Positions 1-12,587 are shown, counted from the first letter of the stretch. The stretch is 64,000 bases of DNA from Candidatus Eiseniibacteriota bacterium (GCA_963762255.1 CAVXKA010000001.1:1440001-1504000), one strand, 5' to 3'. Made by a program: numbers and translations. The notes: a model not told the origin generated them from the sequence alone.

Positions 1-73
1 CGAGCCGACCCCGGTGCGCCGCGACGAGGAGGCCCCCGCGGCGCCGGCTCCCATGGAGGACTGGCTGCTCTGA
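1..73 (+). CDS. 3' end of a CDS entering from outside the window (…EAPAAPAPMEDWLL*)
   Basis: Open frame ending at TGA 71-73 with GC3-rich codons; too short to identify. Confidence 0.45.
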   Translation, partial: EPTPVRRDEEAPAAPAPMEDWLL

Positions 74-313
74 CGCCCTCGAATCCCGCCCTTCCGTGAT
101 CACGAAACATCGTTTATACTTCTGGCAGTTCGGTGGAAACGGTTTTTCGCGATCCTGGAGATTGTGAGGGAACCGTCTTTCGCCGAAGGCTCTAGTTAGG
201 GCGGTCCCTACCGGTGGAGGGATCCCGTCCAGGTGGCAAGACAAGACCGTCAACGTCCCAGACCGTCTTTTCTGTCCGTCCCCCCGTGAAGGCGGAGTCT
301 GGCCGACTGTCCT

Positions 314-691
314 ATGGAGCTCTCTGATATGACCTCCAAACGTTTAGGCATCCTGCTATTCATCCTGGCGTTCGCGTGGAGCGTGGTGGGGCTCGGCTGG
401 TTTGCAGCGCTGTCGGGCGCGGGGCCCGAATCCGGGTTGGGTGTTGGCGCGGCTCAAGCGGATCCCCCAGCGTGGGATCAACTGGTCACGCCGTACACCG
501 TTGACGGGGATCCCGACGCCTTCGCCAATAACTCCGGTGATCCCGACGCATTCACCCAGCCACCGTCTTCCAGCGACAGCACGAGTACCGCGGGGACGAG
601 TCCCGGTGTGACCTCCAACCGTGTGCCTCCCCTGCTTCGCGTGATCTTGGCGGCTGGTTCAGCGATCTCCGGGATCTTGGGTTGGAGTTAG
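314..691 (+). CDS. Small secreted/membrane pro-peptide-like protein with two GDPDAF repeats
   Basis: KR plus hydrophobic N-terminus, AQA-D signal-peptidase-like site, GDPDAF twice (506-523 and 536-553) with synonymous codon differences, Ser/Thr linker, hydrophobic C-terminal helix. Start could be ATG 329. Confidence 0.7.
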   Translation: MELSDMTSKRLGILLFILAFAWSVVGLGWFAALSGAGPESGLGVGAAQADPPAWDQLVTPYTVDGDPDAFANNSGDPDAFTQPPSSSDSTSTAGTSPGVTSNRVPPLLRVILAAGSAISGILGWS

Positions 692-758
692 CAGAACACA
701 GAATCCGGTTTGCCCGGCCGGGGCTCGCTGCCGGCTGGGCCTGTCGAGGGCCAACAGC

Positions 759-3700
759 GTGAACCGTTCGAACGAATCAGAACGGCGTCCCCGACGCGGT
801 GCCTCCGCGCTTGAGGGAGAGGTCTGGCAGGATCTCCCCGAGGCGGTGAAGTACGGGGACGTTTGTTACCAAGCGGAGCGCTTTGCCGATGCGCTGGAGG
901 CGTACGGCAAGGCTTTGGAGGCCTCCGCCAAGAACCGGGCGAACGCCCTTCCGGCCGAAGTGCGCGCGCGGCTGCACTACCGCATGGCCTCGTGCTACAT
1001 GCGTCGGGCCAGCTACCGCCAGGCACTCGAACAGCTCGATCTCTCCCGACAGGCCCTCCCTCGGCACCTCGACAAGATCCGCCTTGCCAAGATCTACGCG
1101 CGCCGCGGCTACATCCTCATAGAGATGGGGCAGTACGCTCGCGCAGAGCGGCATCTCGTCTGGAGCAAGAAGCTCCTGAGCGGAACCAACGAGCACGAGG
1201 AACTGGCCAACCTGGAAACCCATCTGGGGACGCTCTACGCGCGCGTGGGGCGGTCGGACGAATCGCGGCAGTCGTTCCTCAGCGCGCTGGCCACCTTCCG
1301 CCGCATCGGTGACCGCGAAGGCGAGGCCCGTTCGTTCAACAACCTCGGCCTTCATTACAAGAACGCTTGCGAATGGCGGGAGGCGGTGCGCTACCTCGAG
1401 GAGGCGCGCACGCTCTGGGGACGTCTCGGCCATCGCAAGTACCTGGTGGTCGTTCAACTCAACCTCGGCATCGTCCACTTCAAGCTCGGCAAGTGGGAGC
1501 TATGCGAAGAGAACCTTGCCGCCGGGGAGTCGCTTGCGCGGGAACTCGCCGAGAGCCAGCAGCTCGTGCGCATCCAGCTCGCGCAGGGCAACCTCGCGCT
1601 GCGGCGCTGTCGTTGGGACGAGGCGAAGCTGCTCTACAACCAGGCGCTCGACGTGGCGCGGACCGAGTCGTACGGCCGAGAATCGGTACTGGCTCAGGAG
1701 TTTCTGGGCGAGCTGCACTTCGAGCGAGCGGAATTCGAGGAAGCATCAACGCTTCTCGAAGCTGCCCTTGGGGCGGCGCGGGCGATCGCTCCCGAGGGCG
1801 ACCTGGTGAGCGAAAGTCTGCGTCGCTTGGCGGAGACCCGTCTGGCCCAGGGGCGCTTCCAGGAGGCGCTGGATCACGCCAAGGAATCGGCGGCTCTCGC
1901 CAGCCGCATGGGCGATCGCTACGAAGAAGCGGTGGCGTTGCGGAGCGTGGGCTTGGCCATGATTCGTCTGGGACGCCGCGACGAGGGCGAGCGACTTCTG
2001 CAGATGAGCCTCGATAGCCTGGGTGAGATTGGAGAGTCCTACCAGAAGGGCGCGACCCACTTCGCCTACGGTGTCTTCCTTGCCGAGTCGGCCATGGAAA
2101 CCCGGTCTACCCAGGAATTGGAGCAGGCCGGAGTCCATCTCCAGCGCGCCTACGGGGCATTCCTCGACCTCGATGCCCGTGTGCGAGCGGCCGATGCTGC
2201 GTACCGACGCGCGGCGCTTGAGAGCCACTTTCATCGCTTCGACGAGGCGGCGACCTTCCGCGGCAAGGCGCGGCAGGTCCTTCCCGCCGGCGCGGCCCCC
2301 GCCCTGGAAGAGAAACTGAACCGCCTGGGCTCCGAACTCGAGGACGCATTCGCGGAGCGCTGGCCTTCGGGAGGCGACGTTCTCGCATCGCTCCGCGAGA
2401 TGAAGCGATTGTTCCAGGGGGCGACCGACTCCGAAGCGGTGCTGAAGGAACTCATCCGCCTGGCGGTGACCCGCTCCGGTTCGACCCGAGGCTGCGTGGC
2501 CCATCTGGGCCGGAACGGGCGCGTGGAGGTCGTCGCCACGTTCGGCTGGACCCCGGCCGACGCGAAGGCGCTGATCGGCGCGCTGGGTGGCGCGCTTCGG
2601 GGCGCTCTGGACGACAACCGTCCGGTGTGGACCAACAACGCGGCCGAGGACGAACGATTCCGCCCGGTGGCCGGCGGGACACGTTTCGGGGTGAGCAGCC
2701 TGGTGCTCCTGCCTCTGACCCTCACCGATCAGGAGCCCGGCTTCCTCTACGTGGACAAGACCCCCGAGAATACCGAGGGCGCCTATCACCAGGGAGAGCT
2801 GCACCTTCTCACCATCCTGGCCAACCTCGCCGCGCTCTCGATCATCGAGCGGTGGAACTCGCGGTTGGTGAAGGAGAACGAGGAACTTCGGGCGCGCATC
2901 GCTCTGGGCGAGGGGGAGGATCGGTTCGTCACCGCGCACCCCGGGCTCAAAGAGACCTTGCGACTCGTCACGAAGGTGGCCAACAGCCCCGTTTCGATCC
3001 TCGTCGAAGGGGAGACGGGGACGGGCAAGGGACTGCTGGCTCAGATCATCCACGACGCATCCAACCGCCGCGACAAGCCCTTCGTCCAGATCAACTGCGC
3101 CGCGCTCCCCGAGCAGCTTCTCGAGAGCGAGCTCTTCGGGCACATGAAGGGTTCCTTCACCGGGGCGGCCTACAACAAAATCGGGCTTTTCAAGGAAGCC
3201 GAGAACGGCACCATCTTCCTGGACGAGGTGGACAAGACCACACTCGCCGTTCAGGCCAAGCTCCTTCACGTGATGGACTCGAAGGAAGTGCGGCCGGTCG
3301 GCTCGGTGAAGCCCTACCGAGTGGACACCCGCGTGATCTGCGCGACCAACTCGAACCTGCGGGAGAAGATCCGGGCAGGGGAATTCCTGGAAGACCTCTA
3401 CTACCGTCTCAACGACTTTATCGTCACGGTGCCGCCTCTGCGCGACCGGCGTGAGGATCTCCCCCTGCTTCTGGACTACTTCATAAAGAAGTTTTCCACC
3501 CAGTACGGGCGGCCGGAAATTCGCCTCTCGCCTGAGGTGAGTCGCGTGCTCCTCGATCACCACTGGCCGGGCAACGTGCGCGAGCTCGAGAAGACGATTC
3601 GCCGGCTGGTCGTGCTGGCGGACGAGGAACTTCCGGTTGGACTCGATCTTCTTCCGGTGGAGATTCAAACCGAGAAGTTAAGTTTCTCCGGGCAGACTCT

Positions 3701-3857
3701 GCGGGAAGAAGTTTCGCGCGTCGAACGCCGGGTCATCGCGGAGGGGCTGCGCGCCAACGACTGGAACAAGGCTCAGGTGGCCCGGGTGTTGAAGGTCTCC
3801 TACCCTTGTCTGCTCAAGAAGATCAAGGAGCATCACCTCAGTCCACCGGAGCGCTGA
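759..3857 (+). CDS. Sigma54-dependent enhancer-binding protein with N-terminal TPR array, GAF domain, AAA+ domain and Fis-type HTH
   Basis: About 540 aa of TPR-like helices (e.g. ARSFNNLGLHY, QLNLGIVHFKLGKW), GAF-like region (SSLVLLPL…GFLYVD), Walker A GETGTGKG, ESELFGHMKGSFTGA, Walker B FLDEV, DLYYRLN, WPGNVRELE, C-terminal NKAQVARVLKVS HTH. Confidence 0.93.
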   Translation: MNRSNESERRPRRGASALEGEVWQDLPEAVKYGDVCYQAERFADALEAYGKALEASAKNRANALPAEVRARLHYRMASCYMRRASYRQALEQLDLSRQALPRHLDKIRLAKIYARRGYILIEMGQYARAERHLVWSKKLLSGTNEHEELANLETHLGTLYARVGRSDESRQSFLSALATFRRIGDREGEARSFNNLGLHYKNACEWREAVRYLEEARTLWGRLGHRKYLVVVQLNLGIVHFKLGKWELCEENLAAGESLARELAESQQLVRIQLAQGNLALRRCRWDEAKLLYNQALDVARTESYGRESVLAQEFLGELHFERAEFEEASTLLEAALGAARAIAPEGDLVSESLRRLAETRLAQGRFQEALDHAKESAALASRMGDRYEEAVALRSVGLAMIRLGRRDEGERLLQMSLDSLGEIGESYQKGATHFAYGVFLAESAMETRSTQELEQAGVHLQRAYGAFLDLDARVRAADAAYRRAALESHFHRFDEAATFRGKARQVLPAGAAPALEEKLNRLGSELEDAFAERWPSGGDVLASLREMKRLFQGATDSEAVLKELIRLAVTRSGSTRGCVAHLGRNGRVEVVATFGWTPADAKALIGALGGALRGALDDNRPVWTNNAAEDERFRPVAGGTRFGVSSLVLLPLTLTDQEPGFLYVDKTPENTEGAYHQGELHLLTILANLAALSIIERWNSRLVKENEELRARIALGEGEDRFVTAHPGLKETLRLVTKVANSPVSILVEGETGTGKGLLAQIIHDASNRRDKPFVQINCAALPEQLLESELFGHMKGSFTGAAYNKIGLFKEAENGTIFLDEVDKTTLAVQAKLLHVMDSKEVRPVGSVKPYRVDTRVICATNSNLREKIRAGEFLEDLYYRLNDFIVTVPPLRDRREDLPLLLDYFIKKFSTQYGRPEIRLSPEVSRVLLDHHWPGNVRELEKTIRRLVVLADEELPVGLDLLPVEIQTEKLSFSGQTLREEVSRVERRVIAEGLRANDWNKAQVARVLKVSYPCLLKKIKEHHLSPPER

Positions 3858-3889
3858 CCCGGTACTCCGCCCCACATTCTCCGTGCTGT

Positions 3890-3969
3890 ATCAAATCCCT
3901 TTATAGCCTGAAACCCAGCAAAACGGCGGTATTTTCCCCTGCGGCGCCGAGGCGATAAAGAATGTTTAT
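3890..3969. promoter_or_regulatory. Pair of palindromic enhancer (UAS)-like sites, consensus ATAAA-N5-TTTAT
   Basis: ATCAAatcccTTTAT at 3890-3904 and ATAAAgaatgTTTAT at 3955-3969; AT-rich in a GC-rich background; 110-190 bp upstream of a -24/-12 promoter. Confidence 0.6.
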
Positions 3970-4077
3970 AGTGGCGACCTGGTACGCTTCCCGCAAGGCC
4001 GTCACCGCCCTACCCACCCGACGCGTAACTCGTTCCCGCAGGATGCATTAACAGTTGATCCGCGGACGGCGCCGTCC

Positions 4078-4094
4078 TTGGCACGGCCTCTGCA
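4078..4094 (+). promoter_or_regulatory. Sigma54 (-24/-12) promoter for the AAA ATPase transcript
   Basis: TTGGCACGGCCTCTGCA versus consensus YTGGCACGRNNNTTGCW (one mismatch); IHF-like TAA-N19-TTA at 4026-4050. Confidence 0.75.
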
Positions 4095-4253
4095 TATATG
4101 AGCCTGCGGAGGGGGGACCTCCGGAGCCGAAAGCCGTCGGGTTCCAAGCGCAACACGCATCGCAGCTCAGTTGTCCCTGCCGGACTTGGAACCCGATGGG
4201 TCGGCCCTCGTCTTCCGCGACCGAGGCGTTCACCAAGAAAGCGGGGGGGGATC

Positions 4254-5720
4254 GTGAGGCGCGAACGGACCGAAGCCTATCGCGATCAGTTCGAATACCT
4301 CGCGGACTGCTTCGACTTCATTCGCAAGCGTGGGGACGCCTACACCATCCGCACCGAGGCGCTGGAGAGCGAGCGGATGTCCCAGTACGGAGAGCGGAGC
4401 GGCTTCGACCTTGAGCGTAGCCGCCTCCTCAGCATCTACCACGGGATCGAGACCGAGGTGGCGCGCAAGGAAGAGGAAATCCACCGACGCCGGCAGGAGA
4501 CCGACGCGCTGGGGATCCACTTTCCCCTCGATACCTTTATCGAACGGTACAGGCTGCGTCCCGAAGAGACGCAGATTCTCCTGGTTCTCCTTCACAACGA
4601 GTCAGTCGGTCGAAGCCATGCGCGCTTCAGCTCCGGGAACGAGATCCTGAATCTCCTGTTTCCCAATCCGGTGAGCGCGTTGAAGGCTTCCTCGTTTCTC
4701 GATGTGGGGGCGACGCTCCTCGAGGAGGGGCTCATCAGGTCATTCTCCGATGACGAGGCCACCAACTTCTTAAGGGCTGCCTACGAAGTCACGGAGAAGA
4801 CCCTGCACGAGGTGTTGGGAGTCCGCGATCGCAGCGCGATCAGGGACCAGCAGCATGCTCCCCGCACTTCCAGCAGTCCTCTCGAGAGCCCTTTCCGGGT
4901 CGTCGCCCCCCGTGTTCGCCTCGAGCAGGTCGTGCTCCCCGAAGCGGTCCGCCAAGGCATCGAAGAAGTCCTGTGGCAGGCCGAGCAGGGGCAGGAGCTG
5001 TTTCGTGAGTGGGGTCTGGACGAGGTCGTGGAGAAGGGGCGCGGGACCATTGTGTTGTTCAGCGGCCTTCCCGGCACCGGCAAGACGATGACCGCCGAGG
5101 CGATCGCCGAGCGCCTCGGCCGTCCCCTCTACGTCGCCGACTACGCCCAGCTCGAGAGCAAGTGGATCGGCGAGACCGAGAAGAACATCGTGGCCGTGTT
5201 CCAGGCCGCGAGCCAGGCCGGGGCGGTTCTCCTCTTGGACGAGGCGGACGCCGTCCTCGCCGCTCGCCTTGACGGAGGCCACTACAACGATCGCGCGTAC
5301 AACCGCCAGGTGAGCATCCTGCTCGGCGAGATGGAGGCATTTCCCGGCACATGCATCCTCACCACCAATCGGGTGGTGACTCTGGACGAAGGATTGGCGC
5401 GGCGCATCGCGGCTAGCTTTGAGTTCACGATCCCGGAGGCGGGGGAGCGGTCGCGCATCTGGAAGGCGCTGCTCCCGGCCAGGGTGCCTCTGGCAGACGA
5501 TGTGGATCTGGATCAGTTGGCCCGACGGTTTCCAATGGCCGGCGGGCACATCAAGAATGCCGTCCTCACGGCGGTCCGCAAGGCGGGCCGGCGTGCGGGC
5601 CGGGGAGCGCGTGTAACGCAGCGGGATTTCATCGAGGCGGCGGCGGCCGAGCAAGACAGCTTCCGCCCGTGTTCCCGACCCATCGGGTTTCAGGAGGCTT
5701 CCTCCGCTTCCTACTCGTGA
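4254..5720 (+). CDS. AAA+ ATPase (SpoVK/Vps4-like, resembling Afp15/Pvc15-type ATPases) with a winged-helix-like N-terminal region
   Basis: VVLP…EWG…GRGTIVLFSGLPGTGKTMTAEAIA, SKWIGETEKN, LLLDEAD, LTTNR, LARRI. GTG 4254 after a G-rich RBS is preferred because ATG 4098 lies upstream of the predicted TSS. Confidence 0.9.
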   Translation: MRRERTEAYRDQFEYLADCFDFIRKRGDAYTIRTEALESERMSQYGERSGFDLERSRLLSIYHGIETEVARKEEEIHRRRQETDALGIHFPLDTFIERYRLRPEETQILLVLLHNESVGRSHARFSSGNEILNLLFPNPVSALKASSFLDVGATLLEEGLIRSFSDDEATNFLRAAYEVTEKTLHEVLGVRDRSAIRDQQHAPRTSSSPLESPFRVVAPRVRLEQVVLPEAVRQGIEEVLWQAEQGQELFREWGLDEVVEKGRGTIVLFSGLPGTGKTMTAEAIAERLGRPLYVADYAQLESKWIGETEKNIVAVFQAASQAGAVLLLDEADAVLAARLDGGHYNDRAYNRQVSILLGEMEAFPGTCILTTNRVVTLDEGLARRIAASFEFTIPEAGERSRIWKALLPARVPLADDVDLDQLARRFPMAGGHIKNAVLTAVRKAGRRAGRGARVTQRDFIEAAAAEQDSFRPCSRPIGFQEASSASYS

Positions 5721-6100
5721 GGTCTCGCTGCGTGACACCGCCGACGGCTCTTGGGCGGCGACAGGAAGCGGTGCCGGTGGACGCCGGCGCCGCCGGGACT
5801 TGCCGGATCGAGTGTCCGTGGTTCGGCAAGGCGTCGCGATACGGTGGGTTAGACCGAGATGGTTATCCCGTCGCAAGCGAGGTGCAAGAGAGAGGGGAGT
5901 GGGAGCACTAACGAGCGCAGGCTCCCGTTCCCAGCCATCCCTCCCGTCCATGACGGGCGGGGTTTCCGGTCAGGCGAGATGGACGCTTGCCGGAAAGTTG
6001 GAACCGTGAGGGTTCCGTTCGGGCATAGGCACTCGGCGCGCAGACCACACATGGGGATGTCCAGGCTCGTGCCGAAGTGAAAACCGAATGCTCGGACCTG
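5721..6100 (+). ncRNA. Candidate structured non-coding RNA / 3' element (at least 8 consecutive hairpins)
   Basis: Stems 5768-5793, 5799-5830, 5842-5873, 5895-5932, 5943-5957, 5963-5996, 6000-6016 and 6017-6097; mismatches are mostly G-U on the + strand; no convincing ORF. Confidence 0.55.
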
Positions 6101-6137
6101 CGCGACGTCGGAGGACACTCCGGCGTCGCGTTTTTTT
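6101..6137 (+). terminator. Rho-independent terminator
   Basis: cgcgacgtcggag/ctccggcgtcgcg 13-bp stem (one G-U) followed by T7. Confidence 0.88.
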
Positions 6138-6231
6138 GTGCCGCGCGGTCGCGGGCGCTGGGCTCGACCGGTTCAGGGCGTTGCCCGCCGAGCGCTTGAC
6201 CTGCTCGCCCCCGCCCGTCGATAGTGGATGC

Positions 6232-7077
6232 ATGACGGTTTCATCCGACGAACCCGCGCACCGCGCATTCCCCGGCTTTGGCCAGGCGATGCTCCTCGTC
6301 GTCTTCATCTGGCTGGCTATCCTCTTCGTCGCAGTCGCCGCCACGGTTGCGCAGTCACTGCGGGCGGGCCAAGTGGAGATGCCCTCCGAGGCGACCCTCC
6401 TTCTTGTCGCCAATACCGCGGGGTTCTTCCTGATCACCGGCCTCGGCTGGCGGTACACCGGAGCGAGGTTCGGCGAGGTGTTTCCCCTGCGCCGGTTCGA
6501 TCCTCGGCTCCTGGCCCCTGTGTTCCTGTTCACCCTGGGAAGTGTGGCCGTCCTGTCGCAGGTCGATTCCGTGCTCCGACTGCTCCCTGCCCCTGACTGG
6601 TGGAACGCGCTCCTGCGCACGATCGATGAGACCATGTTAGACCTGATCCGCGAGTCGTACTGGGCCGCCGCGATCGCCCTGGTGGTGATGGCGCCGGTCA
6701 CCGAAGAACTCTTCTTCCGAGGGCTGGTGCTCCGCGGATTCCGCCTGCGCTATTCCAGGAAGAAGGCGATCGTCCTCTCCGCGCTTCTTTTCGCCATCAC
6801 CCACCTCACCCCGAACCAGTTTCTCTCCGCGTTCGCGATCGGGCTCTTCCTCGCCTGGATCGTGCTCGAGACTGGAAGCCTCTGGCTCGCGCTCTTCGTT
6901 CACGCGGTGGCGAATGGATCCGGCGTGCTCGCGGCGGGCGCGGGGATGATGGTGCCGTCCGGCGCGGAGCAGCCGGAACTCCTGCCGTGGTGGACCACGC
7001 TGGCGGGTCTCGCGGCCCTCGCCGGCGGGTGGCGGTGGCTGCGTCATCTGCTCCCGTCGCGCTCCCCCGCGATGTAG
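6232..7077 (+). CDS. CPBP (Abi/CAAX type II) intramembrane metalloprotease
   Basis: APVTEELFFRG, FAITH and HAVAN motifs; multiple TM helices; TTGACC-18-GATAGT promoter ending 6 nt before ATG 6232. Confidence 0.9.
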   Translation: MTVSSDEPAHRAFPGFGQAMLLVVFIWLAILFVAVAATVAQSLRAGQVEMPSEATLLLVANTAGFFLITGLGWRYTGARFGEVFPLRRFDPRLLAPVFLFTLGSVAVLSQVDSVLRLLPAPDWWNALLRTIDETMLDLIRESYWAAAIALVVMAPVTEELFFRGLVLRGFRLRYSRKKAIVLSALLFAITHLTPNQFLSAFAIGLFLAWIVLETGSLWLALFVHAVANGSGVLAAGAGMMVPSGAEQPELLPWWTTLAGLAALAGGWRWLRHLLPSRSPAM

Positions 7078-7208
7078 CGCCGCCGCTACAAGCGCGTCCC
7101 CCTGACCACGGTTGCCGCATCCGCTCGACGCGCCCCCGCGCAGCCTCCTCGCCCCCTTAATCCATGGAAGACAAAGGGTTGAGTAGTCGGCCGAACCCGG
7201 CGAATCGA

Positions 7209-7225
7209 TTGGCACCCTGCTTGCG
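7209..7225 (+). promoter_or_regulatory. Sigma54 (-24/-12) promoter
   Basis: TTGGCACCCTGCTTGCG; IHF-like element at 7158-7181, 28 bp upstream. Confidence 0.8.
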
Positions 7226-7237
7226 TTATGGGGGGGC

Positions 7238-8101
7238 ATGAGAGACGCAAGCAAGCTTTCAAGATGGGTTCGCATTCGCCGGGCGGGGTTGACGGTGTTG
7301 CTCGCCGGACTCCTCGGCGGGTTCGTCGGCGGTTGCGATGAGGACTGTCTCCTCTGCTCGGACTGCGGTTCGCCCAACGCGCCGGTCGACGTCTACTCGG
7401 TGACCGGCGACGAGGAGATCGCGCTCTACTGGACCCCGGTCAACCTGGAGGCCGTGGACGAGTTCGTGGTCTACCGCTCCGCCAACGCGGAAGGCCCTTA
7501 TGTGGAGATCGATCACACCCGGCGCGACATGTTCGTCGACCGCGACGTGCGCAACGGGCGTACCTACTTCTACGCGGTGACCGCGATCGACGCGTGCGGC
7601 TACGAGTCGGATCTCTCTCGCGAGCTGGTCCACGATACGCCCCGCCCGGAGGGATTCGGGGCGCGCCTCGACGACGCCAACGGCGACGCGTACGCGCGCA
7701 GCGGCTGGGACTTCAGCGCCTATCGCGCGCTCGTGTGGGATCACGACGAGACCGATGTCTACTTCGTGATTTCCGAGGGCGTGCCGTTCCTGGTCGCGGC
7801 CGACCTGGCCACCGATATCCAGGACGCGGGCTACACCGACTTCGACGGCGTGGACTGGGCGCCCGAGCGCGGGTGGAGCCCCTCCGGCTCCGTCGAGCTC
7901 ATTCCCGGGCACATGATCGTGGTGTGGACGCGGGACAACCACTTCGCGAAGGTGCGGGTGGAGTCGGTCGGCGCAGGAAGGCTCACCTTCGACTGGGCGT
8001 ACCAGATCGACACCGGCAACCGCGAGCTGGCGCCGCGGCCGGGCAACGGGCTCCGAATTCAGGCGGCTCCGGGGCTGCGCCCGGCGCCGCGGGCGCTTTG
8101 A
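7238..8101 (+). CDS. Lipoprotein with fibronectin type III-like domain
   Basis: Lipobox-like VGGC; P-x-x-V-Y-S-V-T-G-D…LYW…YRS…YFYAVTAID…ES FN3 pattern. Confidence 0.75.
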   Translation: MRDASKLSRWVRIRRAGLTVLLAGLLGGFVGGCDEDCLLCSDCGSPNAPVDVYSVTGDEEIALYWTPVNLEAVDEFVVYRSANAEGPYVEIDHTRRDMFVDRDVRNGRTYFYAVTAIDACGYESDLSRELVHDTPRPEGFGARLDDANGDAYARSGWDFSAYRALVWDHDETDVYFVISEGVPFLVAADLATDIQDAGYTDFDGVDWAPERGWSPSGSVELIPGHMIVVWTRDNHFAKVRVESVGAGRLTFDWAYQIDTGNRELAPRPGNGLRIQAAPGLRPAPRAL

Positions 8102-8151
8102 CGATGAAGAACGGTCCAACGACGTGGCTTTCCACGAGGAGGTATGACGAG

Positions 8152-8784
8152 ATGAGAAGCGAATCGATCCGAAAGGCGACGGTCCTTCTGGTCGCGCTGG
8201 CGGGCATCGCGGTCGTCTCGACCGCGGCAGCCGACTCGCGCGGCGTGAATCGAGTGGAGCCGAAGCTGGTGCGCATGCCGGAGCCCACGTTGGTCCGGGT
8301 GCCGATCGAGGATGTGAATGACCTCCGTGTACGTGTCTGGACGGAGCCGGGAGAGGGGACGATGGTGTTCCCCGGCGAGAGCGTGAAGGTCCGGTTCCGC
8401 GTGGATGACGATGCCTACGTGGTCATCTATGACATCGACACCATGGGACGCGTGCGGGTTCTCTTTCCCGAGGATCCCTATGACGACGGATTCGTGCGTG
8501 GCGGACAGGTGGTGCGTCTGCCGGGTCGCGGCGCCGGGTATCGACTCATGGTGAGCGGCCCCGCCGGTGTCGAGCGCATCGTGGCCCTGGCCTCGGACAG
8601 GCCGCTGACAGGTCGGTGGCAGCGGTTCGCCGACAACGACCTGTTCCGGCAGGACAGTTCCTTGAGCCCACGGTTGGTGAAGGCGCCGACGAGGCCGAAC
8701 CTCATCCCCGTTCCCGTCGATCGCGACGGGGTGGCGAGGGACGAGACCTGGTTCAGGGTGGGCCGGTCCGGCCGGAGCTACTGA
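8152..8784 (+). CDS. Secreted DUF4384-like domain protein
   Basis: RBS GAGGAGG, signal peptide, PGESVKVRFRVDDDAYVVIYDIDTMGRVRVLFP…GPAGVERIVALAS. Confidence 0.75.
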   Translation: MRSESIRKATVLLVALAGIAVVSTAAADSRGVNRVEPKLVRMPEPTLVRVPIEDVNDLRVRVWTEPGEGTMVFPGESVKVRFRVDDDAYVVIYDIDTMGRVRVLFPEDPYDDGFVRGGQVVRLPGRGAGYRLMVSGPAGVERIVALASDRPLTGRWQRFADNDLFRQDSSLSPRLVKAPTRPNLIPVPVDRDGVARDETWFRVGRSGRSY

Positions 8785-8897
8785 CGTGTTGAGGGGTCCG
8801 GCCTCTCCCGCGGCCTCCCCGGGCCCAAACGGGGGAGGCCGGCGCCCCGACTGAGAATGCCCATCGAGGGGAGATCGGCCCCTCCCTCGGTAGGCGA

Positions 8898-8925
8898 GGG
8901 CCCCCGTCCGGGGGCCCGTTTTATT
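8898..8925 (+). terminator. Rho-independent terminator
   Basis: gggccccc/gggggccc stem followed by gttttatt. Confidence 0.65.
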
Positions 8926-9077
8926 GGAACCGAACGTCGGCCCGGGGGGTCTACCCAAAGCCTCCCGGGCCGCTTTGCGTCGAAGCCTGCATGCGGTACG
9001 GTATTCAGTCCCCCGGCCGCATGCCGTGTGCCGGGTGCTTGATCCATGTGCGCCCTGCGCCGGGCCGAACCACCCTG

Positions 9078-12000
9078 ATGAACATCTCGCCGATCTCCCG
9101 CCAGGCTCTTGCCATGCTGGTCCTTGCCGGCGTCCTTGCCTCCGGCGCAGGCCCGCTCACCATCGTCGCCTCCGCGGCGGCATCCATTCCGTCGGCCCTC
9201 TCCGCAGACGTGCCCCGGCCCTGCTTCGTCCCGGCCCATCCCCTCAAGCAGGGGATCGCCCCGCGACCGGAAGCTCCCAGCTCCCCGCGGGCGGGCGAGA
9301 TCGCGCTCAAGGTGGGGGGCGCCTTCGAGCCCTATCACGACGCGCACTTGCGCGAGGGGATTGCGTCGGGTGCGGAGGACGTCACGCCGAGGCGCTGGCG
9401 CATCGCCGCGATTCTGGTCGACTTTGAGGAACAGGAGATGGGCGCTGGATTCGCCGCCGCCCGCGAGGACTCCATCCGGCTCTACTTCGATCGCGCGCTC
9501 ACGCACCTCGACCAGATGTACCGGTCGATGTCGGATGGGCTTCAAGAACTCACCTGGGATATCACGCCGTCGGTCTATCGCATGCCGCGATCCCTGGCCT
9601 ACTACGGCCTTGACGATTCGATCGCCACGCGCGAGGCCGACCTCTGCCGCGATGCGGTCCAAGCCGCCGACGCCGACGTGGATTTCGGCGACTACGATGT
9701 CTACATGGTCTTCCATGCCGGCCCGGGGCAAGAGGCCGACATCTTGAACGATTCGCAGGACCAGATCTGGTCGGTCTTCTTCCGCCAGGTCGACTTCGGG
9801 TTCTGGCTGAACGCACCGGACGCGGAGCGCGGCATCCGGACCGCGGATCTCACCGCGACCGGGGACACTGTCTTCGTGACCCACACCGTGGTGCTTCCGG
9901 AGACCGAAAGCCAGGATGGATACGAGTTCGGGCTGCTCGGCGTGGTCGCCCACGAGTTCGGCCATCGCTTCGGGCTTCCCGACCTCTACGACACGACCGG
10001 CCCCGCGGACTTCATCTACGCCGACAGCCAGGGGATCGGCACCTTCGGGCTCATGGGAGCGGGGATCTGGAACGACAACGGCTTCTTCCCCGCCGAGATG
10101 GAGGCGTGGAGCAAGTTCTACGTGGGGTGGTTGCGCCCGCGGGTAATTCGCCCCGAGGCCGGCGGGGGCGAGCAGATCGTCTCCCTGGAGGCGGCCGAGC
10201 TCGCGCGCCGGGAGGGCGCGGTGCGGATACCGATGGGAGGGGACGAGTACCTGCTCATCGAGAACCGCGTGCGCGATTACAACTACAACGGCATCGTCGA
10301 TTTCACGGACGCGGACGACGACTCCGTATTCGACTTCTGGACCGACGGATACGGAGCCACCGCCGACGGCGGCGACACCGAATTCGACTGGTATCTGCCG
10401 CAGCCGCTGGACCGACCCCGTAACCCGAAGAAGGACGGTTCCGGACTTCTGATCTGGCATGTCGACGAATCCACGATCAGCGACTTGCTCCTCTACAACA
10501 TGGTGAACGCGGACGCGCTTCACAAGGGCGTGGACCTCGAAGAGGCCGACGGCATCCAGGATCTGGACAAGCTCGTGTTCCAGTTCGAGGCGTTCGGCGA
10601 TTCGCGCGATTCCTACTGGGCCGGCAACGCTACCGAACTGACCCCCGCGAGCACACCGCCATCCGATGCCTACAGCGACGCTCGGACCGGGATCTGGATC
10701 ACCGACATCTCGGAGGCGGGGCGCACCATGAGCTTCCGCCTCCGCTTCACCTCGCCCGACGGGAACGCCGAAGGTGACTTCATCGACGGATGGCCGCGCG
10801 ATCTTCCCGGGCTCGTGCGTGACTTCCAGCCGGTGGCCGGCGATCTGAACGGCGACGGCCGGCTGGAGATCGTGTTGGCCGCCACGGACGAAGACGGCAT
10901 CGGAGGGCCGATCGTCCTCGACGCCGACGGGACGTCCTTCCTGCCCGCGGGGGACACGCCCCGTTACTTCAGTACCGGGCGGCTGCACGCCGAGCCGATC
11001 CTCGTGAACATGGACGGCCCCGAAGGGGAATCGGGCCTGGAGATGGTGTGGGTGAGCGGCGACACCGTGTACGCTGCGCGTGGCGACGGCACCTACCTGA
11101 CTGCGAGTGGTGGGGCGAGCCCCGGCCCGGCGCCGTTCTTCGTTCTGAACATGGAGCCCGGTCGCACGCATCTCGTGGCGGACGACATCGACGGTTTCGA
11201 CGGTCGCCCCGAATTGCTCCTGGGCATCCCGTCGCCGCTGCGCCTGAACGCCAACGACCTGATCGCAATCGCCTACAGACCCGGTCAAGGCACGCGCCTG
11301 CGCGTGCAGGCGACCCTGTTCGGCGAGGCCGATCTTCACTCCACCCTCGCCGATCTCGACACCGTGGACGCCGGCTTGAAGGAGACCATCACGAGCGTGC
11401 GGACACCGGACGGCGGGTGGCTGAGCGTGACGCTCCTTGGCGAGGAACTCGACGAGAGCGGGATGTATCCGGTCTGTTCGCTCAAGTACTCGCAGGGTGA
11501 CACGGTCGCGTTCACCGAACCGGTGACCGGCGATCTCAACGGCGACGGCCTCGACGAGATCGTCGTGGGGGACTCGCGAGGCTTCGTGCATGCGCTGACC
11601 GTTCGCTCCGTCACCATCGACGGCATCAGCAAGCTCTGCGAAGCGCGCAGCGCGGCGGGGACCACGGAGAACGACAACGACCTGTTCACCGAGCTGCCGG
11701 GGTGGCCGATCGAAATCGGGACGCTCGCCGACGATGAGTTGTCGCTGGCCGATTTCGACGGCGACGGCCACCTCGAGGTCTTGGCGTTCGGCCCGATCAA
11801 CCGTCTCTACGCGATCAACTACAACGGAACCTTCGACATGTCCTATCCGGTCCAACTGCCCGGAGAGGATCGGTTCACCGCGTCGTTCCTGTCTCCGTTG
11901 TTCTTCGATCTCCCGGGGCTGGTGCGGTCGGAGGGGTTCTTCGCGCTTCCCCTCCCGGACGGGCAGGTCCGTCTGCACGAATCCGGCGAGAGTCCCTATC

Positions 12001-12587
12001 GTGACGTGAGCTACCTTGGAGGCGGCACCCAACGGAGCTATCCGGTGCTTGCGGCCTTCGACCCGCAAGAGGGCCGTGGTCTCCTCACCGTCGAGGACGT
12101 GAACGTCAGTTTCCCGCCCATGATCGCGAGCGGCGATACGTCGCCGGGGATCACAAAGGTTGGACGGGCGATTCTGCGCTCGGTGGGTTCAGGCCCGTTC
12201 GCGCCCGGCGGCTGGCCGGTCTACCGCCATGATGCGGCCCGCACCGGCCGCGCTCTCGAACCGTCGAGCCCCGGACAGGAGCCCGCGAACGGGCTGCTCG
12301 CGGACACGTTTGTCATGCCCAACCCGGCCGCGAGCACCCAGCCCGGCTTCCACTACCGGGTGAGCTCGGACGTGAGGAGCGTGACCATCGAGGTGCACGA
12401 TCTCAACGGAAGGCTGGTGCGCACGATCGACGGCTCGGTGGACCTGCACACCGACAACATCGTGCGCTGGGATCTGCGCAACGATCACGGGCACGAGGTG
12501 GCCCCCGGGCTCTACGTGGCCAGGCTCAAGGCGGAGACGAGCTCGAAAGCGGGAAGCCGGGTCGTGACCTTTGTGGTGCTGCGATGA
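9078..12587 (+). CDS. Secreted M6 (immune inhibitor A-like) metalloprotease with FG-GAP repeats and FlgD/T9SS-type C-terminal domain
   Basis: FHAGPGQE, AHEFGHRFGLPDLYD, LLIENR, GLLIWHVDE, GDLNGDG repeats, MPNPA…WDLRNDHGHEVAPGLYVARL…VVLR. Confidence 0.88.
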   Translation: MNISPISRQALAMLVLAGVLASGAGPLTIVASAAASIPSALSADVPRPCFVPAHPLKQGIAPRPEAPSSPRAGEIALKVGGAFEPYHDAHLREGIASGAEDVTPRRWRIAAILVDFEEQEMGAGFAAAREDSIRLYFDRALTHLDQMYRSMSDGLQELTWDITPSVYRMPRSLAYYGLDDSIATREADLCRDAVQAADADVDFGDYDVYMVFHAGPGQEADILNDSQDQIWSVFFRQVDFGFWLNAPDAERGIRTADLTATGDTVFVTHTVVLPETESQDGYEFGLLGVVAHEFGHRFGLPDLYDTTGPADFIYADSQGIGTFGLMGAGIWNDNGFFPAEMEAWSKFYVGWLRPRVIRPEAGGGEQIVSLEAAELARREGAVRIPMGGDEYLLIENRVRDYNYNGIVDFTDADDDSVFDFWTDGYGATADGGDTEFDWYLPQPLDRPRNPKKDGSGLLIWHVDESTISDLLLYNMVNADALHKGVDLEEADGIQDLDKLVFQFEAFGDSRDSYWAGNATELTPASTPPSDAYSDARTGIWITDISEAGRTMSFRLRFTSPDGNAEGDFIDGWPRDLPGLVRDFQPVAGDLNGDGRLEIVLAATDEDGIGGPIVLDADGTSFLPAGDTPRYFSTGRLHAEPILVNMDGPEGESGLEMVWVSGDTVYAARGDGTYLTASGGASPGPAPFFVLNMEPGRTHLVADDIDGFDGRPELLLGIPSPLRLNANDLIAIAYRPGQGTRLRVQATLFGEADLHSTLADLDTVDAGLKETITSVRTPDGGWLSVTLLGEELDESGMYPVCSLKYSQGDTVAFTEPVTGDLNGDGLDEIVVGDSRGFVHALTVRSVTIDGISKLCEARSAAGTTENDNDLFTELPGWPIEIGTLADDELSLADFDGDGHLEVLAFGPINRLYAINYNGTFDMSYPVQLPGEDRFTASFLSPLFFDLPGLVRSEGFFALPLPDGQVRLHESGESPYRDVSYLGGGTQRSYPVLAAFDPQEGRGLLTVEDVNVSFPPMIASGDTSPGITKVGRAILRSVGSGPFAPGGWPVYRHDAARTGRALEPSSPGQEPANGLLADTFVMPNPAASTQPGFHYRVSSDVRSVTIEVHDLNGRLVRTIDGSVDLHTDNIVRWDLRNDHGHEVAPGLYVARLKAETSSKAGSRVVTFVVLR

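What the first reader, a model, noticed from the sequence alone, without database searches (positions are those of the whole stretch)
314..6137. Candidate peptide-sensing sigma54 circuit: pro-peptide, TPR-GAF activator, enhancer/promoter, AAA ATPase and structured RNA
Seen: in one co-oriented block, a small secreted ORF with a repeated motif, a TPR-GAF-AAA+-HTH activator 67 bp downstream, two palindromes, an IHF-like site, a -24/-12 promoter, a structured leader, an AAA+ ATPase, about 370 nt of hairpins and a strong terminator. Established: Firmicute RRNPP systems (Rap-Phr, NprR-NprX, PlcR-PapR, AimR-AimP) pair a TPR receptor with an adjacent secreted pro-peptide, and bEBPs usually activate nearby sigma54 promoters through UAS and IHF sites. 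Inference: an RRNPP-like or peptide-gated signalling system in a diderm, with a sigma54 activator as output. I do not know this architecture as a described system.
Basis: partly seen in the sequence, partly recalled or inferred. Interest (0 to 1): 0.9.

Follow-up and report, generated by a model that had tools for sequence, protein, structure and literature searches.

The report
Sigma-54 switch with RNA and peptide
An uncultured soil and sediment phylum keeps one conserved gene switch: a small exported protein, a large sensor-activator, its DNA binding sites and special promoter, and an undescribed structured RNA as output, which makes an unknown signalling route open to test.

Summary
Only the IHF-like site could not be substantiated. 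Comparison with about 200 genomes labelled Candidatus Eisenbacteria changes the picture.

- **Cis wiring.** The TPR-GAF-AAA+-HTH activator (759-3857), two palindromic enhancer sites (3887-3907, 3952-3972) and the -24/-12 promoter P1 (4079-4094) are conserved across the phylum.
- **Main output.** P1 mainly drives a structured RNA, not the AAA ATPase. The RNA starts with the hairpin GGAGGGGGGACCUCC. In many families it ends in a covarying three-tier hairpin with GGGGGAUGUCC in its loop. Most families have no ORF between these two modules. Only this genome's order carries the AAA ATPase ORF (4254-5720) there.
- **Second promoter.** A sigma-54 promoter P2 (7210) precedes a conserved operon: FN3 lipoprotein, DUF4384 protein and M6 peptidase.
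- **Small exported ORF.** It is a real, unnamed family. It lies directly upstream of the activator in 71 of 71 loci, of a second TPR-activator paralogue in 17 of 17, and of a third in 8 of 8. In this genome no non-TPR activator (0 of 20) has one.

The cognate small-protein/TPR pairing is strongly supported. RRNPP-style peptide re-import is untested. Verdict: a new variant of a known kind, of high interest.

The parts
329..691 (+). Small exported protein (120 aa from ATG 329; the ORF opens at 314). It has a signal-peptide-like N-terminus, GDPDAF twice, and a hydrophobic C-terminal tail.
   Evidence: No Pfam or NCBIfam family. G60 is invariant and D63 is kept in at least 90% of 61 homologues.
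759..3857 (+). Sigma-54 activator (bEBP), 1032 aa: TPR array (about residues 30-540), GAF (556-695), AAA+ sigma-54 interaction domain (725-887), lid, and HTH_8 (987-1024).
   Evidence: Pfam; GETGTGK, GSFTGA, DEV. A full-length orthologue is found in 41 of 41 related genomes.
3887..3907 (.). Enhancer site UAS1, TGTATCAAATCCCTTTATAGC, 192 nt upstream of P1.
   Evidence: The family consensus is CTATMAA-N5-TTKATAG.
3952..3972 (.). Enhancer site UAS2, GCGATAAAGAATGTTTATAGT, 127 nt upstream of P1.
   Evidence: A second site scores above 8 bits in 54 of 106 loci, mostly around -140.
4079..4094 (+). Sigma-54 promoter P1, TGGCACGGCCTCTGCA. The inferred transcription start is near 4106.
4108..4122 (+). 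5' hairpin GGAGGGGGGACCTCC at the start of the transcript. It is single-copy in the genome.
4106..4253 (+). 5' leader: the 5' hairpin, a long conserved stem (CCGUCGGGUUCCAAG / CUUGGAACCCGAUGG), and a last hairpin that pairs with the G-rich ribosome-binding site.
4254..5720 (+). Classic-clade AAA+ ATPase, 488 aa from GTG 4254: N-terminal winged-helix domain (PF22977) and one AAA module (GLPGTGKT, VLLLDE). It is an order-specific insert between the two RNA modules.
5721..6137 (+). Non-coding, structured 3' region. It is conserved in blocks within the family, and no ORF in it is conserved.
6018..6106 (+). 3' RNA module matching covariance model R1. The loop motif GGGGATGTCCAGGC lies at 6053-6066.
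   Evidence: 18.6 bits, E = 1.4e-4 in a 3.5-kb search, best hit..
6100..6137 (+). Intrinsic terminator: a 14-pair stem followed by a T run.
7210..7225 (+). Second sigma-54-like promoter P2, TGGCACCCTGCTTGCG, in front of the FN3 lipoprotein gene.
   Evidence: A site is present in 67 of 88 loci. Background elsewhere is 0.016 sites per kb.
7238..8101 (+). Lipoprotein-like protein with an FN3-type region (287 aa). It is the most widely conserved downstream neighbour of the activator.
   Evidence: No Pfam or NCBIfam hit.
8104..8784 (+). DUF4384 protein.
   Evidence: PF14326, E = 6.8e-21..
8991..12587 (+). Large M6-family (immune inhibitor A-like) peptidase with FG-GAP repeats and a FlgD Ig-like end. 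It follows on the same strand in 22 related loci.

Best explanation
This is one copy of a regulatory module conserved across the phylum Candidatus Eisenbacteria. The phylum name comes from the record titles.

The cytoplasmic TPR-GAF activator binds the two palindromes CTATMAA-N5-TTKATAG about 190 and 130 nt upstream of P1. With sigma-54 RNA polymerase it switches on P1. It probably also switches on P2, which drives an operon for an FN3 lipoprotein, a DUF4384 protein and an M6 peptidase.

The conserved product of P1 is a structured RNA. It begins with the hairpin GGAGGGGGGACCUCC. In many families it ends in a three-tier hairpin with GGGGGAUGUCC in its apical loop, followed by a terminator. Most families have no ORF between these two modules, so there it is a sigma-54-dependent small RNA of about 125-430 nt. 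In this genome's order a Cdc48-like AAA ATPase gene sits between the modules. The transcript is therefore an mRNA framed by the RNA modules, and the 3' module may be released as a 3'-UTR-derived RNA.

The small exported protein encoded just upstream is the cognate partner or input of the activator's TPR array. How it reaches or informs the cytoplasmic TPR domain is open.

Shown: the anatomy, the conservation, the covariation and the gene linkage. Inferred: that the activator binds these sites, that P1 and P2 fire, that the RNA acts in trans, and that the small protein contacts the TPR domain.
For: **Linkage of activator, P1 and hairpin**
- P1 lies 220-350 nt after the activator's stop codon in 33 of 36 fetched loci and in the window.
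- An exact pattern of promoter plus hairpin occurs once in each of 172 of 206 genomes of the phylum (103 of 121 high-quality genomes). The reversed-pattern control gave 0 hits in every genome.
- A blind scan of 185,579 species genomes stopped at its limit with 117 or more stretches. Of the 80 listed, 57 are titled Eisenbacteria or Eiseniibacteriota. Of those 80, 77 have the activator just upstream and 66 have the FN3 gene downstream.

**Enhancer sites**
- 105 of 106 loci have a site, against 2 of 106 shuffled loci. Positions cluster at -192 to -205 and at -127 to -140.
- The strict motif is about 500-fold enriched over the rest of the loci.
- It occurs only 4 times in this genome, and 2 of those are here.

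**RNA**
- No ORF between P1 and P2 is conserved in the 20 AAA-less loci examined (of 25 with a mapped P1).
- On a sequence-only alignment of 40 copies of the 3' module, 89.1% of cells are paired, against 30-42% when partners are slid. 17 of 24 pairs show changes on both sides, and 0 of 500 shuffles reach this.
- Model R1 finds one copy in 72 of 151 genomes: f10 57/60, f16 6/6, f2 2/2, f6 2/2, f4 1/1, f1 2/6.
- R1 finds the window's copy at 6018-6106.
- The 5' hairpin and the 3' motif are single-copy in this genome.
- The 3' region folds far better than shuffles (z = -6.13).

**AAA gene as an insert**
- An orthologue is present in 10 of 10 genomes of families f1 and f2. Only partial AAA-domain hits appear in 2 of 31 other genomes.

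**P2**
- Present in 67 of 88 loci, where about 0.005 per locus is expected by chance.

**Small protein**
- Present in 71 of 71 loci, with the motif in 66 of 68 distinct sequences. Control: 29 signal-peptide-like ORFs, 2 with the motif, at 400 random positions.
- Second paralogue family: 17 of 17. Third, GAF-less TPR family: 8 of 8.
- In this genome, 3 of 3 TPR activators have one and 0 of 20 other activators have one with the motif.

**Complex prediction** (TPR residues 1-560 with small protein residues 45-120)
- Verdict: weak support. Score 0.40, best control 0.01.
- The mark was reached by 58 of 80 solved complexes and 2 of 110 mismatched pairs. At 0.60 or under, only 7 of those 80 and both mismatches reached it.
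- The runs agree in at least 34% of contacts. The partner's pLDDT is at least 33.

**Genome and precedent**
- rpoN is present.
- A known precedent has the same layout: pxr lies downstream of the sigma-54 regulator gene nla19 and has its own sigma-54 promoter (passages of PMC5568312).
Against: - No transcription data of good quality. The four RNA runs laid are assembled contigs from relatives about 92% identical, and one is an 18.7-kb contig that could be DNA.
- No DNA-binding or promoter assay exists, so the activator-to-UAS-to-P1 link rests on position and conservation.
- P2 has no palindromes of its own in the window. It lies 3.2 kb from the UAS here, so another activator could serve it.
- The 5' hairpin barely varies. 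An RNA hairpin therefore cannot be told from a DNA inverted repeat. Only one compensatory variant was seen, GGAGA/TCTCC in L045.
- The 3' module is missing or different in several families: f9 1/32, f12, f14, f15 and f17 0. The window's own copy scores only 18.6 bits.
- No Hfq or CsrA gene was found in this 93.6%-complete genome. No target has been identified.
- The small protein looks Sec-exported while the activator has no membrane segment, so direct contact needs an extra step.
- The complex score is in the band that is 'more often wrong than right' without a strong prior.
- Relatives are not independent samples.
- One unpublished genome (G045) is among the genomes counted.
Confidence: 0.7

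Rival explanations
1. RRNPP-like quorum or peptide signalling. The small protein is exported and cut outside the cell, perhaps by the co-regulated M6 peptidase. A fragment is taken up by an Opp-type importer, binds the TPR groove and gates the activator's ATPase.
For: - Strict adjacency of a signal-peptide ORF to every TPR activator family.
- Several paralogous cassettes per genome, as with Rap-Phr (recalled).
- Residues after the (G/A)DPD core differ between paralogues within one genome: GDPDAF against ADPDTF.
- Weak complex support: score 0.40 against 0.01 for the best control, with the counts given under the best explanation.
- The genome has 7 matches to family-5 solute-binding proteins of the Opp/Dpp type.
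- A secreted metalloprotease lies in the downstream operon. This recalls NprR-NprX and nprA (recalled).
Against: - The proteins have a median length of 105 aa, about twice the usual RRNPP pro-peptide length (the comparison is recalled).
- The only conserved element is central and nearly the same across the phylum, not a variable C-terminal peptide.
- No processing site, importer linkage or sequence homology to RRNPP receptors was shown. Pfam gives only generic TPR families.
- A diderm envelope adds a barrier.
Confidence: 0.2
2. Export-coupled control. The unexported precursor, or its basic aromatic C-terminal tail, binds the TPR array in the cytoplasm as an anti-activator or co-activator. Its export through Sec changes activator activity, so the module reports export or envelope state. 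In logic this resembles FlgM with sigma-28, or NifL with NifA (recalled).
For: - The activator has no membrane segment, whereas the partner has a signal peptide.
- The partner gene sits directly upstream and in the same orientation, as nifL does relative to nifA (recalled).
- The tail is conserved in character: net positive in 52 of 68 and with at least 3 aromatic residues in 53 of 68.
- The outputs are envelope or secreted proteins.
- Weak complex support (counts as above).
Against: - Nothing shows a cytoplasmic pool of the precursor.
- The invariant G-(D/E)-P-D motif lies in the part that would be exported.
- No interface was returned by the prediction.
Confidence: 0.2
3. The small protein is only a co-located product with no signalling role towards the activator. 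It could be an envelope or surface protein, or a precursor of an amphipathic, antimicrobial-like peptide with an acidic pro-region. The genes stay together because they are co-transcribed.
For: - The acidic middle (net negative in 46 of 68) combined with a cationic aromatic tail resembles pro-peptide/peptide pairs (the resemblance is recalled).
- The paralogue's small ORF has a 9-of-12 sigma-54-like site upstream, so it could be a target.
- Only weak complex support.
Against: - Linkage holds in three anciently diverged TPR-activator families and never at non-TPR activators. That is hard to explain by co-transcription alone.
- The small gene lies upstream of the activator, not behind a sigma-54 promoter, in the window.
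Confidence: 0.2
4. The RNA elements are no more than untranslated regions of the AAA ATPase mRNA: a leader controlling its translation, and a long terminator region. There is no trans-acting RNA.
For: - In the window the last leader hairpin pairs with the G-rich ribosome-binding site.
- No promoter was found inside 5721-6137.
- No target and no Hfq or CsrA gene were found.
Against: - The same 5' hairpin and 3' module are conserved where no ORF lies between them.
- The AAA gene is limited to families f1 and f2.
- The 3' module shows covariation typical of a functional RNA.
Confidence: 0.1
5. The RNA is a protein sponge of the CsrB/RsmZ kind. It would present G-rich GGA-containing loops (GGGGGA twice) to an RNA-binding protein.
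For: - Both invariant elements place GGGGGA in or at a hairpin loop.
- GGGGGAUGU resembles the recalled CsrA SELEX core ARGGAUGU.
Against: - No CsrA gene (PF02599) in this 93.6%-complete genome.
- There are only two such sites, not the many of CsrB-type RNAs (recalled).
- No Rfam match.
Confidence: 0.1

Closest known systems
Myxococcus xanthus nla19 (sigma-54 response regulator) and the Pxr small RNA
   Same: The activator gene is followed, after a 262-nt intergenic region, by a small RNA gene with its own sigma-54 promoter and enhancer site. The RNA folds into several stem-loops and has a processed shorter form (passages of PMC5568312). Here P1 lies 220-350 nt after the activator's stop codon.
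   Different: - The Myxococcus activator is described as a response regulator. This one senses through TPR and GAF domains and has a cognate small exported protein.
- The RNA has no Rfam match at all.
- The RNA is longer in most families.
- In this order it carries an ATPase ORF.
Vibrio LuxO with Qrr small RNAs, and enterobacterial GlrR with GlmY (recalled, not from a call)
   Same: Sigma-54 activators whose direct and main targets are small RNAs, with the RNA gene beside the activator gene.
   Different: - Those activators are phosphorylated response regulators.
- Their RNAs act with Hfq or by mimicry. No Hfq gene was found here.
- There is no sequence or Rfam relation.
RRNPP receptor-peptide cassettes (Rap-Phr, NprR-NprX, PlcR-PapR, PrgX, AimR-AimP; recalled)
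   Same: A TPR-type receptor is encoded next to a small ORF with a Sec signal peptide, and several paralogous cassettes occur per genome.
   Different: - The output is a sigma-54 AAA+ activator, not a plain HTH or phosphatase.
- The host is a diderm phylum.
- The partner is about 105 aa, with a phylum-wide central G(D/E)PD motif and an aromatic basic tail.
- Processing, import and binding are untested.
- No specific sequence homology was shown.
NifL-NifA and PspA-PspF (recalled)
   Same: A sigma-54 activator (GAF-containing in NifA) is controlled by a partner protein. In nifLA the partner gene lies directly upstream.
   Different: Those partners are cytoplasmic proteins from known families. 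This partner is small, looks exported, belongs to no family, and tracks the TPR array rather than the GAF domain. The third paralogue family has no GAF.
3'-UTR-derived and dual-function regulatory RNAs such as CpxQ, SgrS/SgrT and RNAIII/hld (recalled)
   Same: In this order one transcript would combine a protein-coding part with conserved regulatory RNA modules.
   Different: - Here the coding part (a 488-aa ATPase) appears to have been inserted into an older non-coding RNA gene.
- Release of a 3' fragment is only hinted at.

Membership tests
Bacterial enhancer-binding proteins (sigma-54 activators) | AAA+ sigma-54 interaction domain with Walker A/B motifs and a GAFTGA-type loop | tested here: met
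   PF00158 E = 6.4e-64. GETGTGK at residue 751, GSFTGA at 798, DEV at 822.
Bacterial enhancer-binding proteins (sigma-54 activators) | C-terminal Fis-type HTH, and sigma-54 encoded in the genome | tested here: met
   HTH_8 at residues 987-1024. Sigma54_DBD hit at 216 bits in contig C2.
Bacterial enhancer-binding proteins (sigma-54 activators) | Activates a -24/-12 promoter from upstream enhancer sites | tested here: inconclusive
   The promoter and palindromes are conserved in position. No binding or transcription assay is possible with these tools.
RRNPP receptor-peptide systems | TPR-type receptor domain with an adjacent small ORF bearing a secretion signal | tested here: met
   (TPR). (small ORFs). 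The signal peptide was judged by a hydrophobicity heuristic only; no dedicated predictor was available.
RRNPP receptor-peptide systems | Exported pro-peptide is processed and a short mature peptide is re-imported and bound in the TPR groove | not testable with these tools
   Only weak complex support for the 76-residue mature part: 0.40 against 0.01 for the best control. Opp/Dpp-type binding proteins exist in the genome.
RRNPP receptor-peptide systems | Sequence or structural homology of the receptor to Rap/NprR/PlcR/PrgX/AimR | not tested
   Pfam shows only generic TPR families. No structure comparison was run.
Known sigma-54-dependent small RNA families and any other Rfam family (including Pxr, Qrr, GlmY, CsrB/Rsm) | Match to the family's covariance model | tested here: not met
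   Window 1-9000: only two chance-level hits below gathering, ncS01 E = 0.22 and sX13 E = 0.1. Six related loci gave no hit at E <= 1.
CsrA-sequestering RNAs | A CsrA/RsmA protein in the genome and many GGA loops | tested here: not met
   PF02599 gave 0 hits in the 93.6%-complete genome. There are only two conserved GGA-containing loops.
Classic-clade AAA ATPases (PF00004) | AAA module with Walker A/B motifs | tested here: met
   PF00004 E = 1.4e-24. GLPGTGKT and VLLLDE. Nearest solved relatives are Cdc48/p97 D2 domains, E = 1e-35.
IteA anti-phage ATPase (NF042959) | Score above the curated cut-off | tested here: not met
   98.4 bits against a cut-off of 510.

The most novel reading that the evidence does not exclude
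Eisenbacteria run several orthogonal signalling cassettes. In each, a Sec-exported G(D/E)PD protein or a fragment of it is the specific ligand of the TPR array of its own sigma-54 activator. This would be an RRNPP-like receptor-ligand family in a diderm, with an AAA+ enhancer-binding protein as its engine. In the best-conserved cassette the first output would be a previously unknown regulatory RNA, into which one order has inserted a Cdc48-like ATPase gene.
Probability: 0.25. Interest if true: 0.9.

Novelty: new variant of a known kind. Interest (0 to 1): 0.75.

Why it matters
- **A usable regulatory circuit for an uncultured phylum.** Eisenbacteria have no cultured member that I know of (recalled) and no described regulation. 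Searches for 'Eisenbacteria' with 'sigma-54' found 0 papers. This work gives defined enhancer sites, two promoters and an RNA family with a working covariance model. All can be tested in a heterologous host.
- **The activator-plus-RNA layout is wider than thought.** A sigma-54 activator gene next to its small RNA is known from Myxococcus, Vibrio and enterobacteria. Finding it here suggests it arose repeatedly or is old.
- **A recurring, exclusive pairing.** Three paralogous TPR-activator families each have a small exported protein partner, and non-TPR activators have none. This is the kind of pattern that marks receptor-ligand pairs. I did not find the pairing described: 'RRNPP' with 'sigma54' gave 3 papers, none on this by title, and the TPR/GAF/enhancer-binding search listed none.
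- **A rare evolutionary event.** An ATPase gene lodged between the two modules of an older RNA gene is a case of a non-coding RNA gene turning into an mRNA.

Tried and rejected
- **Known RNAs.** Rfam at permissive thresholds on the window and on six related loci, and ARAGORN, found no known RNA.
- **CsrA and Hfq.** Not found in this genome. The sponge and Hfq-dependent readings were therefore lowered.
- **IHF-like site.** Only a two-mismatch match to the recalled consensus, and not conserved. A different short element, AAC-NN-GTT, lies 40-60 nt upstream of P1 in 21 of 106 loci. I did not pursue it.
- **ORFs inside 5721-6137** (80, 69 and 73 aa). No conservation by tblastn, best E = 0.03. Rejected as genes.
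- **First sigma-54 scan**. It had the -12 GC one position off and found nothing. Corrected.
- **My terminator finder and motif offsets**. Too strict and wrongly offset. Replaced.
- **The DNA search with a degenerate first base.** The count was done by script instead.
- **ESM Atlas on the small protein.** No usable hit.
- **The search of earlier findings.** Closed, so no earlier notes were seen.
- **C-rich target idea.** A hairpin in the small gene's leader shows GUCCCCCC, complementary to the RNA's 5' loop, in 7 of 7 family-f1 loci. Overall only 15 of 68 loci have a C run of 5 or more. It is a family-level lead, not the conserved target.
- **RNA runs**.
  - Only contigs of about 92%-identical relatives could be laid.
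  - Uncovered parts, depth differences and the single 87-nt skip (5940 to 6028) in one low-depth contig are not used as evidence.
- **Paralogue's downstream region.** No sigma-54 site at 10 of 12 or better within 15 kb.
- **PADLOC and PHROGS.** Not searched.
- **Paper supplements.** Closed and not consulted. They could hold Pxr promoter details but do not bear on the claims made here.

Full report
**What is in the window**

On the + strand, in order:

| Coordinates | Feature |
|---|---|
| 314/329-691 | Small ORF |
| 759-3857 | 1032-aa activator: TPR repeats, GAF, sigma-54 AAA+ domain (GETGTGK, GSFTGA), HTH_8 |
| 3887-3907, 3952-3972 | Two AT-rich palindromes |
| 4079-4094 | -24/-12 promoter P1, TGGCACGGCCTCTGCA |
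| 4106-4253 | 148-nt leader |
| 4254-5720 | AAA ATPase; the ORF opens at 4098, the likely start is GTG 4254 |
| 5721-6137 | 417-nt non-coding stretch ending in a 14-pair terminator |
| 6232-7077 | CPBP-type membrane protease gene |
| 7210-7225 | Second sigma-54-like promoter P2 |
| 7238-8101 | FN3-type lipoprotein gene |
| 8104-8784 | DUF4384 protein gene |
| 8991-12587 | M6-family peptidase gene |

The genome encodes sigma-54. The leader folds slightly better than shuffled sequence (z = -2.01). The 3' stretch folds far better (z = -6.13).

**Which organism**

Of the 80 listed, 57 are titled Candidatus Eisenbacteria or Eiseniibacteriota, 17 have generic titles, and 6 carry other labels.

**The cis-regulatory core is conserved across the phylum**

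- A full-length orthologue of the TPR-GAF part of the activator is found in 41 of 41 related genomes.
- In the fetched loci P1 lies 220-350 nt after the activator's stop codon: 33 of 36 loci, plus the window.
- The exact promoter-hairpin pattern occurs once in each of 172 of 206 genomes of the phylum (103 of 121 high-quality ones). The reversed-pattern control gave 0 hits everywhere.
- The families without an exact match carry visible variants of the hairpin or promoter: f12 0/5, f6 0/2, f11 0/3, f3 0/1, f15 4/13.
- Of the 80 loci found by that DNA pattern alone, 77 have the activator just upstream and 66 have the FN3 gene downstream.
- The two palindromes belong to a family with consensus CTATMAA-N5-TTKATAG. 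A refined matrix finds a site scoring above 8 bits in 105 of 106 loci, against 2 of 106 shuffled ones. Sites cluster at -192 to -205 and at -127 to -140.
- A strict form is about 500 times more frequent there than elsewhere in the loci. It occurs only 4 times in this whole genome, and 2 of those are here.
- P2 is present in 67 of 88 loci that have the FN3 gene, where about 0.005 per locus is expected.

That the activator binds these sites and fires P1 and P2 is an inference from position, from conservation, and from the established behaviour of enhancer-binding proteins.

**The conserved product of P1 is an RNA, not the ATPase**

- The AAA ATPase orthologue is present in 10 of 10 genomes of families f1 and f2, which make up this order. 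Otherwise only partial AAA-domain hits appear, in 2 of 31 genomes.
- In the other families P1 is followed by 125-430 nt with no conserved ORF, often ending in an intrinsic terminator before P2.
- Two elements recur.
  - The first is the hairpin GGAGGGGGGACCUCC, 13-15 nt after the -12 element, so at the very start of the transcript.
  - The second is a 3' module whose loop reads GGGGGAUGUCCAGGC. It is found in about two thirds of 114 loci by motif: 70 hits, 3 or 4 of them spurious.
- The 3' module folds as a three-tier hairpin.
- On a sequence-only alignment of 40 copies, 89.1% of cells are paired, against 30-42% when partners are slid. 17 of 24 pairs change on both sides, and 0 of 500 shuffles reach these values.
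- The covariance model R1 built from that alignment finds one copy in 72 of 151 genomes. It concentrates in f10 (57/60), f16 (6/6), f2, f6, f4 and f1. It is nearly absent from f9 (1/32) and several others, where the RNA is shorter and ends differently.
- In the window R1's best hit is 6018-6106 (18.6 bits, E = 1.4e-4 in a 3.5-kb search), just before the terminator.
- Closer relatives with the ATPase score higher: L015 36.8 bits, L020 38.7 bits.
- In f2 the module begins about 70 nt after the ATPase stop codon. In f1 it begins about 300 nt after.
- The extra f1 sequence is conserved in blocks, with indels that are not multiples of three and with no conserved ORF.
- Both elements are single-copy in this genome.
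- No Rfam family matches.

The simplest reading is that an older sigma-54-dependent RNA gene acquired an ATPase ORF between its 5' and 3' modules in the ancestor of this order.

**Expression data are thin**

Only assembled contigs of metatranscriptome runs, from relatives about 92% identical, could be laid. One run has a 672-nt contig covering 5423-6072 that ends in sequencing adapter exactly at the foot of the 3' hairpin. Another run has a 245-nt contig covering 5811-6055. These are hints of stable 3' fragments and nothing more. An 18.7-kb contig in a third run may be DNA.

**The small ORF is a real gene family tied to TPR activators**

- tblastn recovers it only in close relatives: 5 of 36 loci.
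- A search by position and features finds a signal-peptide-like ORF ending 13-227 nt upstream of the activator in 71 of 71 loci. Lengths run 60-126 aa, with a median of 105.
- Of 68 distinct sequences, 66 carry G(D/E)P(D/I/N/E/G), GD(G/N)DG or (V/D)PD(E/P)(I/T).
- The same detector run at 400 random positions of this genome gives 29 signal-peptide-like ORFs, and 2 with the motif.
- In an alignment of 61 members one glycine is invariant, and the aspartate three residues later is kept in at least 90%.
- None of the 61 has a credible Pfam family.
- The middle is mostly acidic (net negative in 46 of 68). The last 22 residues are mostly basic (52 of 68) and aromatic (at least 3 of W/F/Y in 53 of 68).
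- The signal peptide is judged by a hydrophobicity heuristic. No dedicated predictor was available.

**The pairing repeats in paralogues and is exclusive**

- A second TPR-GAF activator clade, about 26-29% identical, has such an ORF directly upstream in this genome. Its motif there is EADPDTF. The same holds in 17 of 17 other genomes examined.
- A third clade of about 803-834 aa has TPR, the sigma-54 domain and HTH_8 but no GAF. It has such an ORF in 8 of 8 loci.
- This genome has 23 activator-like genes. The 3 TPR-type ones each have such an ORF. The third has a weaker motif, GAPD. None of the other 20 has one with the motif.

So the small protein tracks the TPR array, not the GAF domain or the promoter. 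It duplicates together with its activator, which is the pattern expected of cognate partners.

**Complex prediction**

I predicted a complex of TPR residues 1-560 with the mature part of the small protein (residues 45-120). The verdict was 'weak support': score 0.40, best control 0.01. The mark was reached by 58 of 80 solved complexes and 2 of 110 mismatched pairs. At 0.60 or under, only 7 of those 80 and both mismatches reached it. The runs agree in at least 34% of contacts, and the partner's pLDDT is at least 33. By the tool's own wording, such a pass is informative only if the guess was already likely. The gene linkage supplies that prior.

**How it may work**

*Well supported.* A cytoplasmic TPR-GAF activator, its own enhancer sites, a sigma-54 promoter and a structured RNA form one unit. 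A second sigma-54 operon for envelope or secreted proteins follows.

*Open.* The route from an apparently exported protein to a cytoplasmic TPR domain is not known. Three readings remain:
- export, processing and re-import of a fragment, the RRNPP logic. The genome has Opp/Dpp-type binding proteins, and a secreted metalloprotease lies in the downstream operon;
- binding of the unexported precursor or its tail, so that export itself is the signal;
- no signalling at all, only co-expression.

I rate these at about 0.2 each. I rate 'cognate functional partner, mechanism open' at about 0.6.

*The RNA's mode of action is also unknown.* No Hfq or CsrA gene was found. In family f1 only, a hairpin in the small gene's leader shows GUCCCCCC, complementary to the RNA's first loop, in 7 of 7 loci against 15 of 68 overall. 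This would make a feedback loop, but it cannot be the conserved target.

**Comparison with what is known**

- *Closest layout.* In Myxococcus, pxr lies downstream of the sigma-54 regulator gene nla19, after a 262-nt intergenic region. It has its own sigma-54 promoter and enhancer site, and a processed short form (passages of PMC5568312). LuxO-Qrr and GlrR-GlmY are further recalled examples.
- *Closest logic for the input side.* The RRNPP cassette (recalled). The adjacency and secretion-signal features are met. The peptide-maturation and binding features could not be tested. Homology was not tested.
- *The ATPase.* A single-module classic AAA protein, nearest to Cdc48/p97 D2 domains. It falls far below the cut-off of the anti-phage IteA model.
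- *Literature.* 'Eisenbacteria' with 'sigma-54' gave 0 papers. TPR/GAF/enhancer-binding terms gave 44 papers, and none of the 15 listed is on such a system by title or abstract start. 'RRNPP' with 'sigma54' gave 3 papers, unrelated by title. Of these papers I saw only the search listings.

**Caveats**

- Related genomes are not independent samples.
- One unpublished genome (G045) is among those counted.
- Start codons of several genes are inferred.

**Verdict**

What is really there is wider than the finding. It is a phylum-wide sigma-54 module whose conserved output is an undescribed structured RNA. It also includes a recurrent, exclusive pairing of TPR activators with small exported G(D/E)PD proteins.

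Noticed in passing
window 6196-6232: The CPBP/Rce1-like protease gene (Pfam PF02517) most likely starts at ATG 6232. The only sigma-70-like promoter match in 1-7500 (TTGACC-18-GATAGT, 6196-6225) ends 6 nt before it, so the mRNA may be leaderless. The gene is present only in family f1 loci.
   Followed up: partly
window 1-72: This is the 3' end of a gene whose relatives (for example L014 910-1335) look like ArsR/SmtB-type HTH regulators. It is conserved upstream of the small ORF in family f1 and in a few other families. In several other families (6 of the 8 loci printed) a Ppx/GppA-like gene sits there instead. The family names were judged by eye, not by a search.
   Followed up: no
window 7210-7240: The ATG of the FN3 lipoprotein gene lies only 13 nt after the -12 element of P2 and right behind a G7 run. 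In close relatives P2 is about 90 nt from the start. Either this mRNA is leaderless or the start is misplaced.
   Followed up: partly
L034 about 5750-5790, and the same place in many f10 loci: Just after the RNA's 3' module there is a conserved inverted repeat GGTGTRGCGC...CACACCTG, between the RNA gene and P2. It could be another regulator's site or a further RNA hairpin.
   Followed up: no
G000 contig C3, about 615-630 kb, minus strand: This is the paralogous cassette: a small exported protein (EADPDTF motif), then a 1012-aa TPR-GAF activator, then a 734-aa TPR-like protein 14 nt later. A 9-of-12 sigma-54-like site lies about 45 nt upstream of the small ORF. No site at 10 of 12 or better occurs within 15 kb.
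   Followed up: partly
window 276-290, and family f1 relatives: The leader of the small ORF forms a hairpin with covarying stems and a loop reading GUCCCCCC, complementary to the loop region of the P1 RNA's first hairpin. It is seen in 7 of 7 f1 loci. Elsewhere it is rare: 15 of 68 loci overall have a C run of 5 or more.
   Followed up: partly
window 8856-8976: A GC-rich hairpin region lies between the DUF4384 gene and the M6 peptidase gene. It gives a weak, sub-threshold Rfam hit to sX13 (26 bits against a gathering score of 50, E = 0.1). This is probably chance.
   Followed up: no
window 8991-12587: The 1198-aa M6-family peptidase also has FG-GAP repeats and a FlgD Ig-like C-terminus, plus a sub-threshold TcdB_toxin_midN hit (E = 0.015, below the cut-off). 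It follows the module on the same strand in 22 related loci.
   Followed up: partly
window about 4022-4039, and 40-60 nt upstream of P1 in relatives: A short element AAC-NN-GTT, with a flanking T or A (GTAACTCGTT in the window), recurs in 21 of 106 loci, mostly at -40 to -60. It is not the IHF consensus.
   Followed up: no
window 5423-6072 (run X16): A metatranscriptome contig of a relative about 90% identical ends in Illumina adapter exactly at 6072, the 3' foot of the GGCAC...GUGCC hairpin that carries the conserved loop. Its depth figure (122.9) is higher than that of the contig over the ATPase gene (46.6).
   Followed up: no
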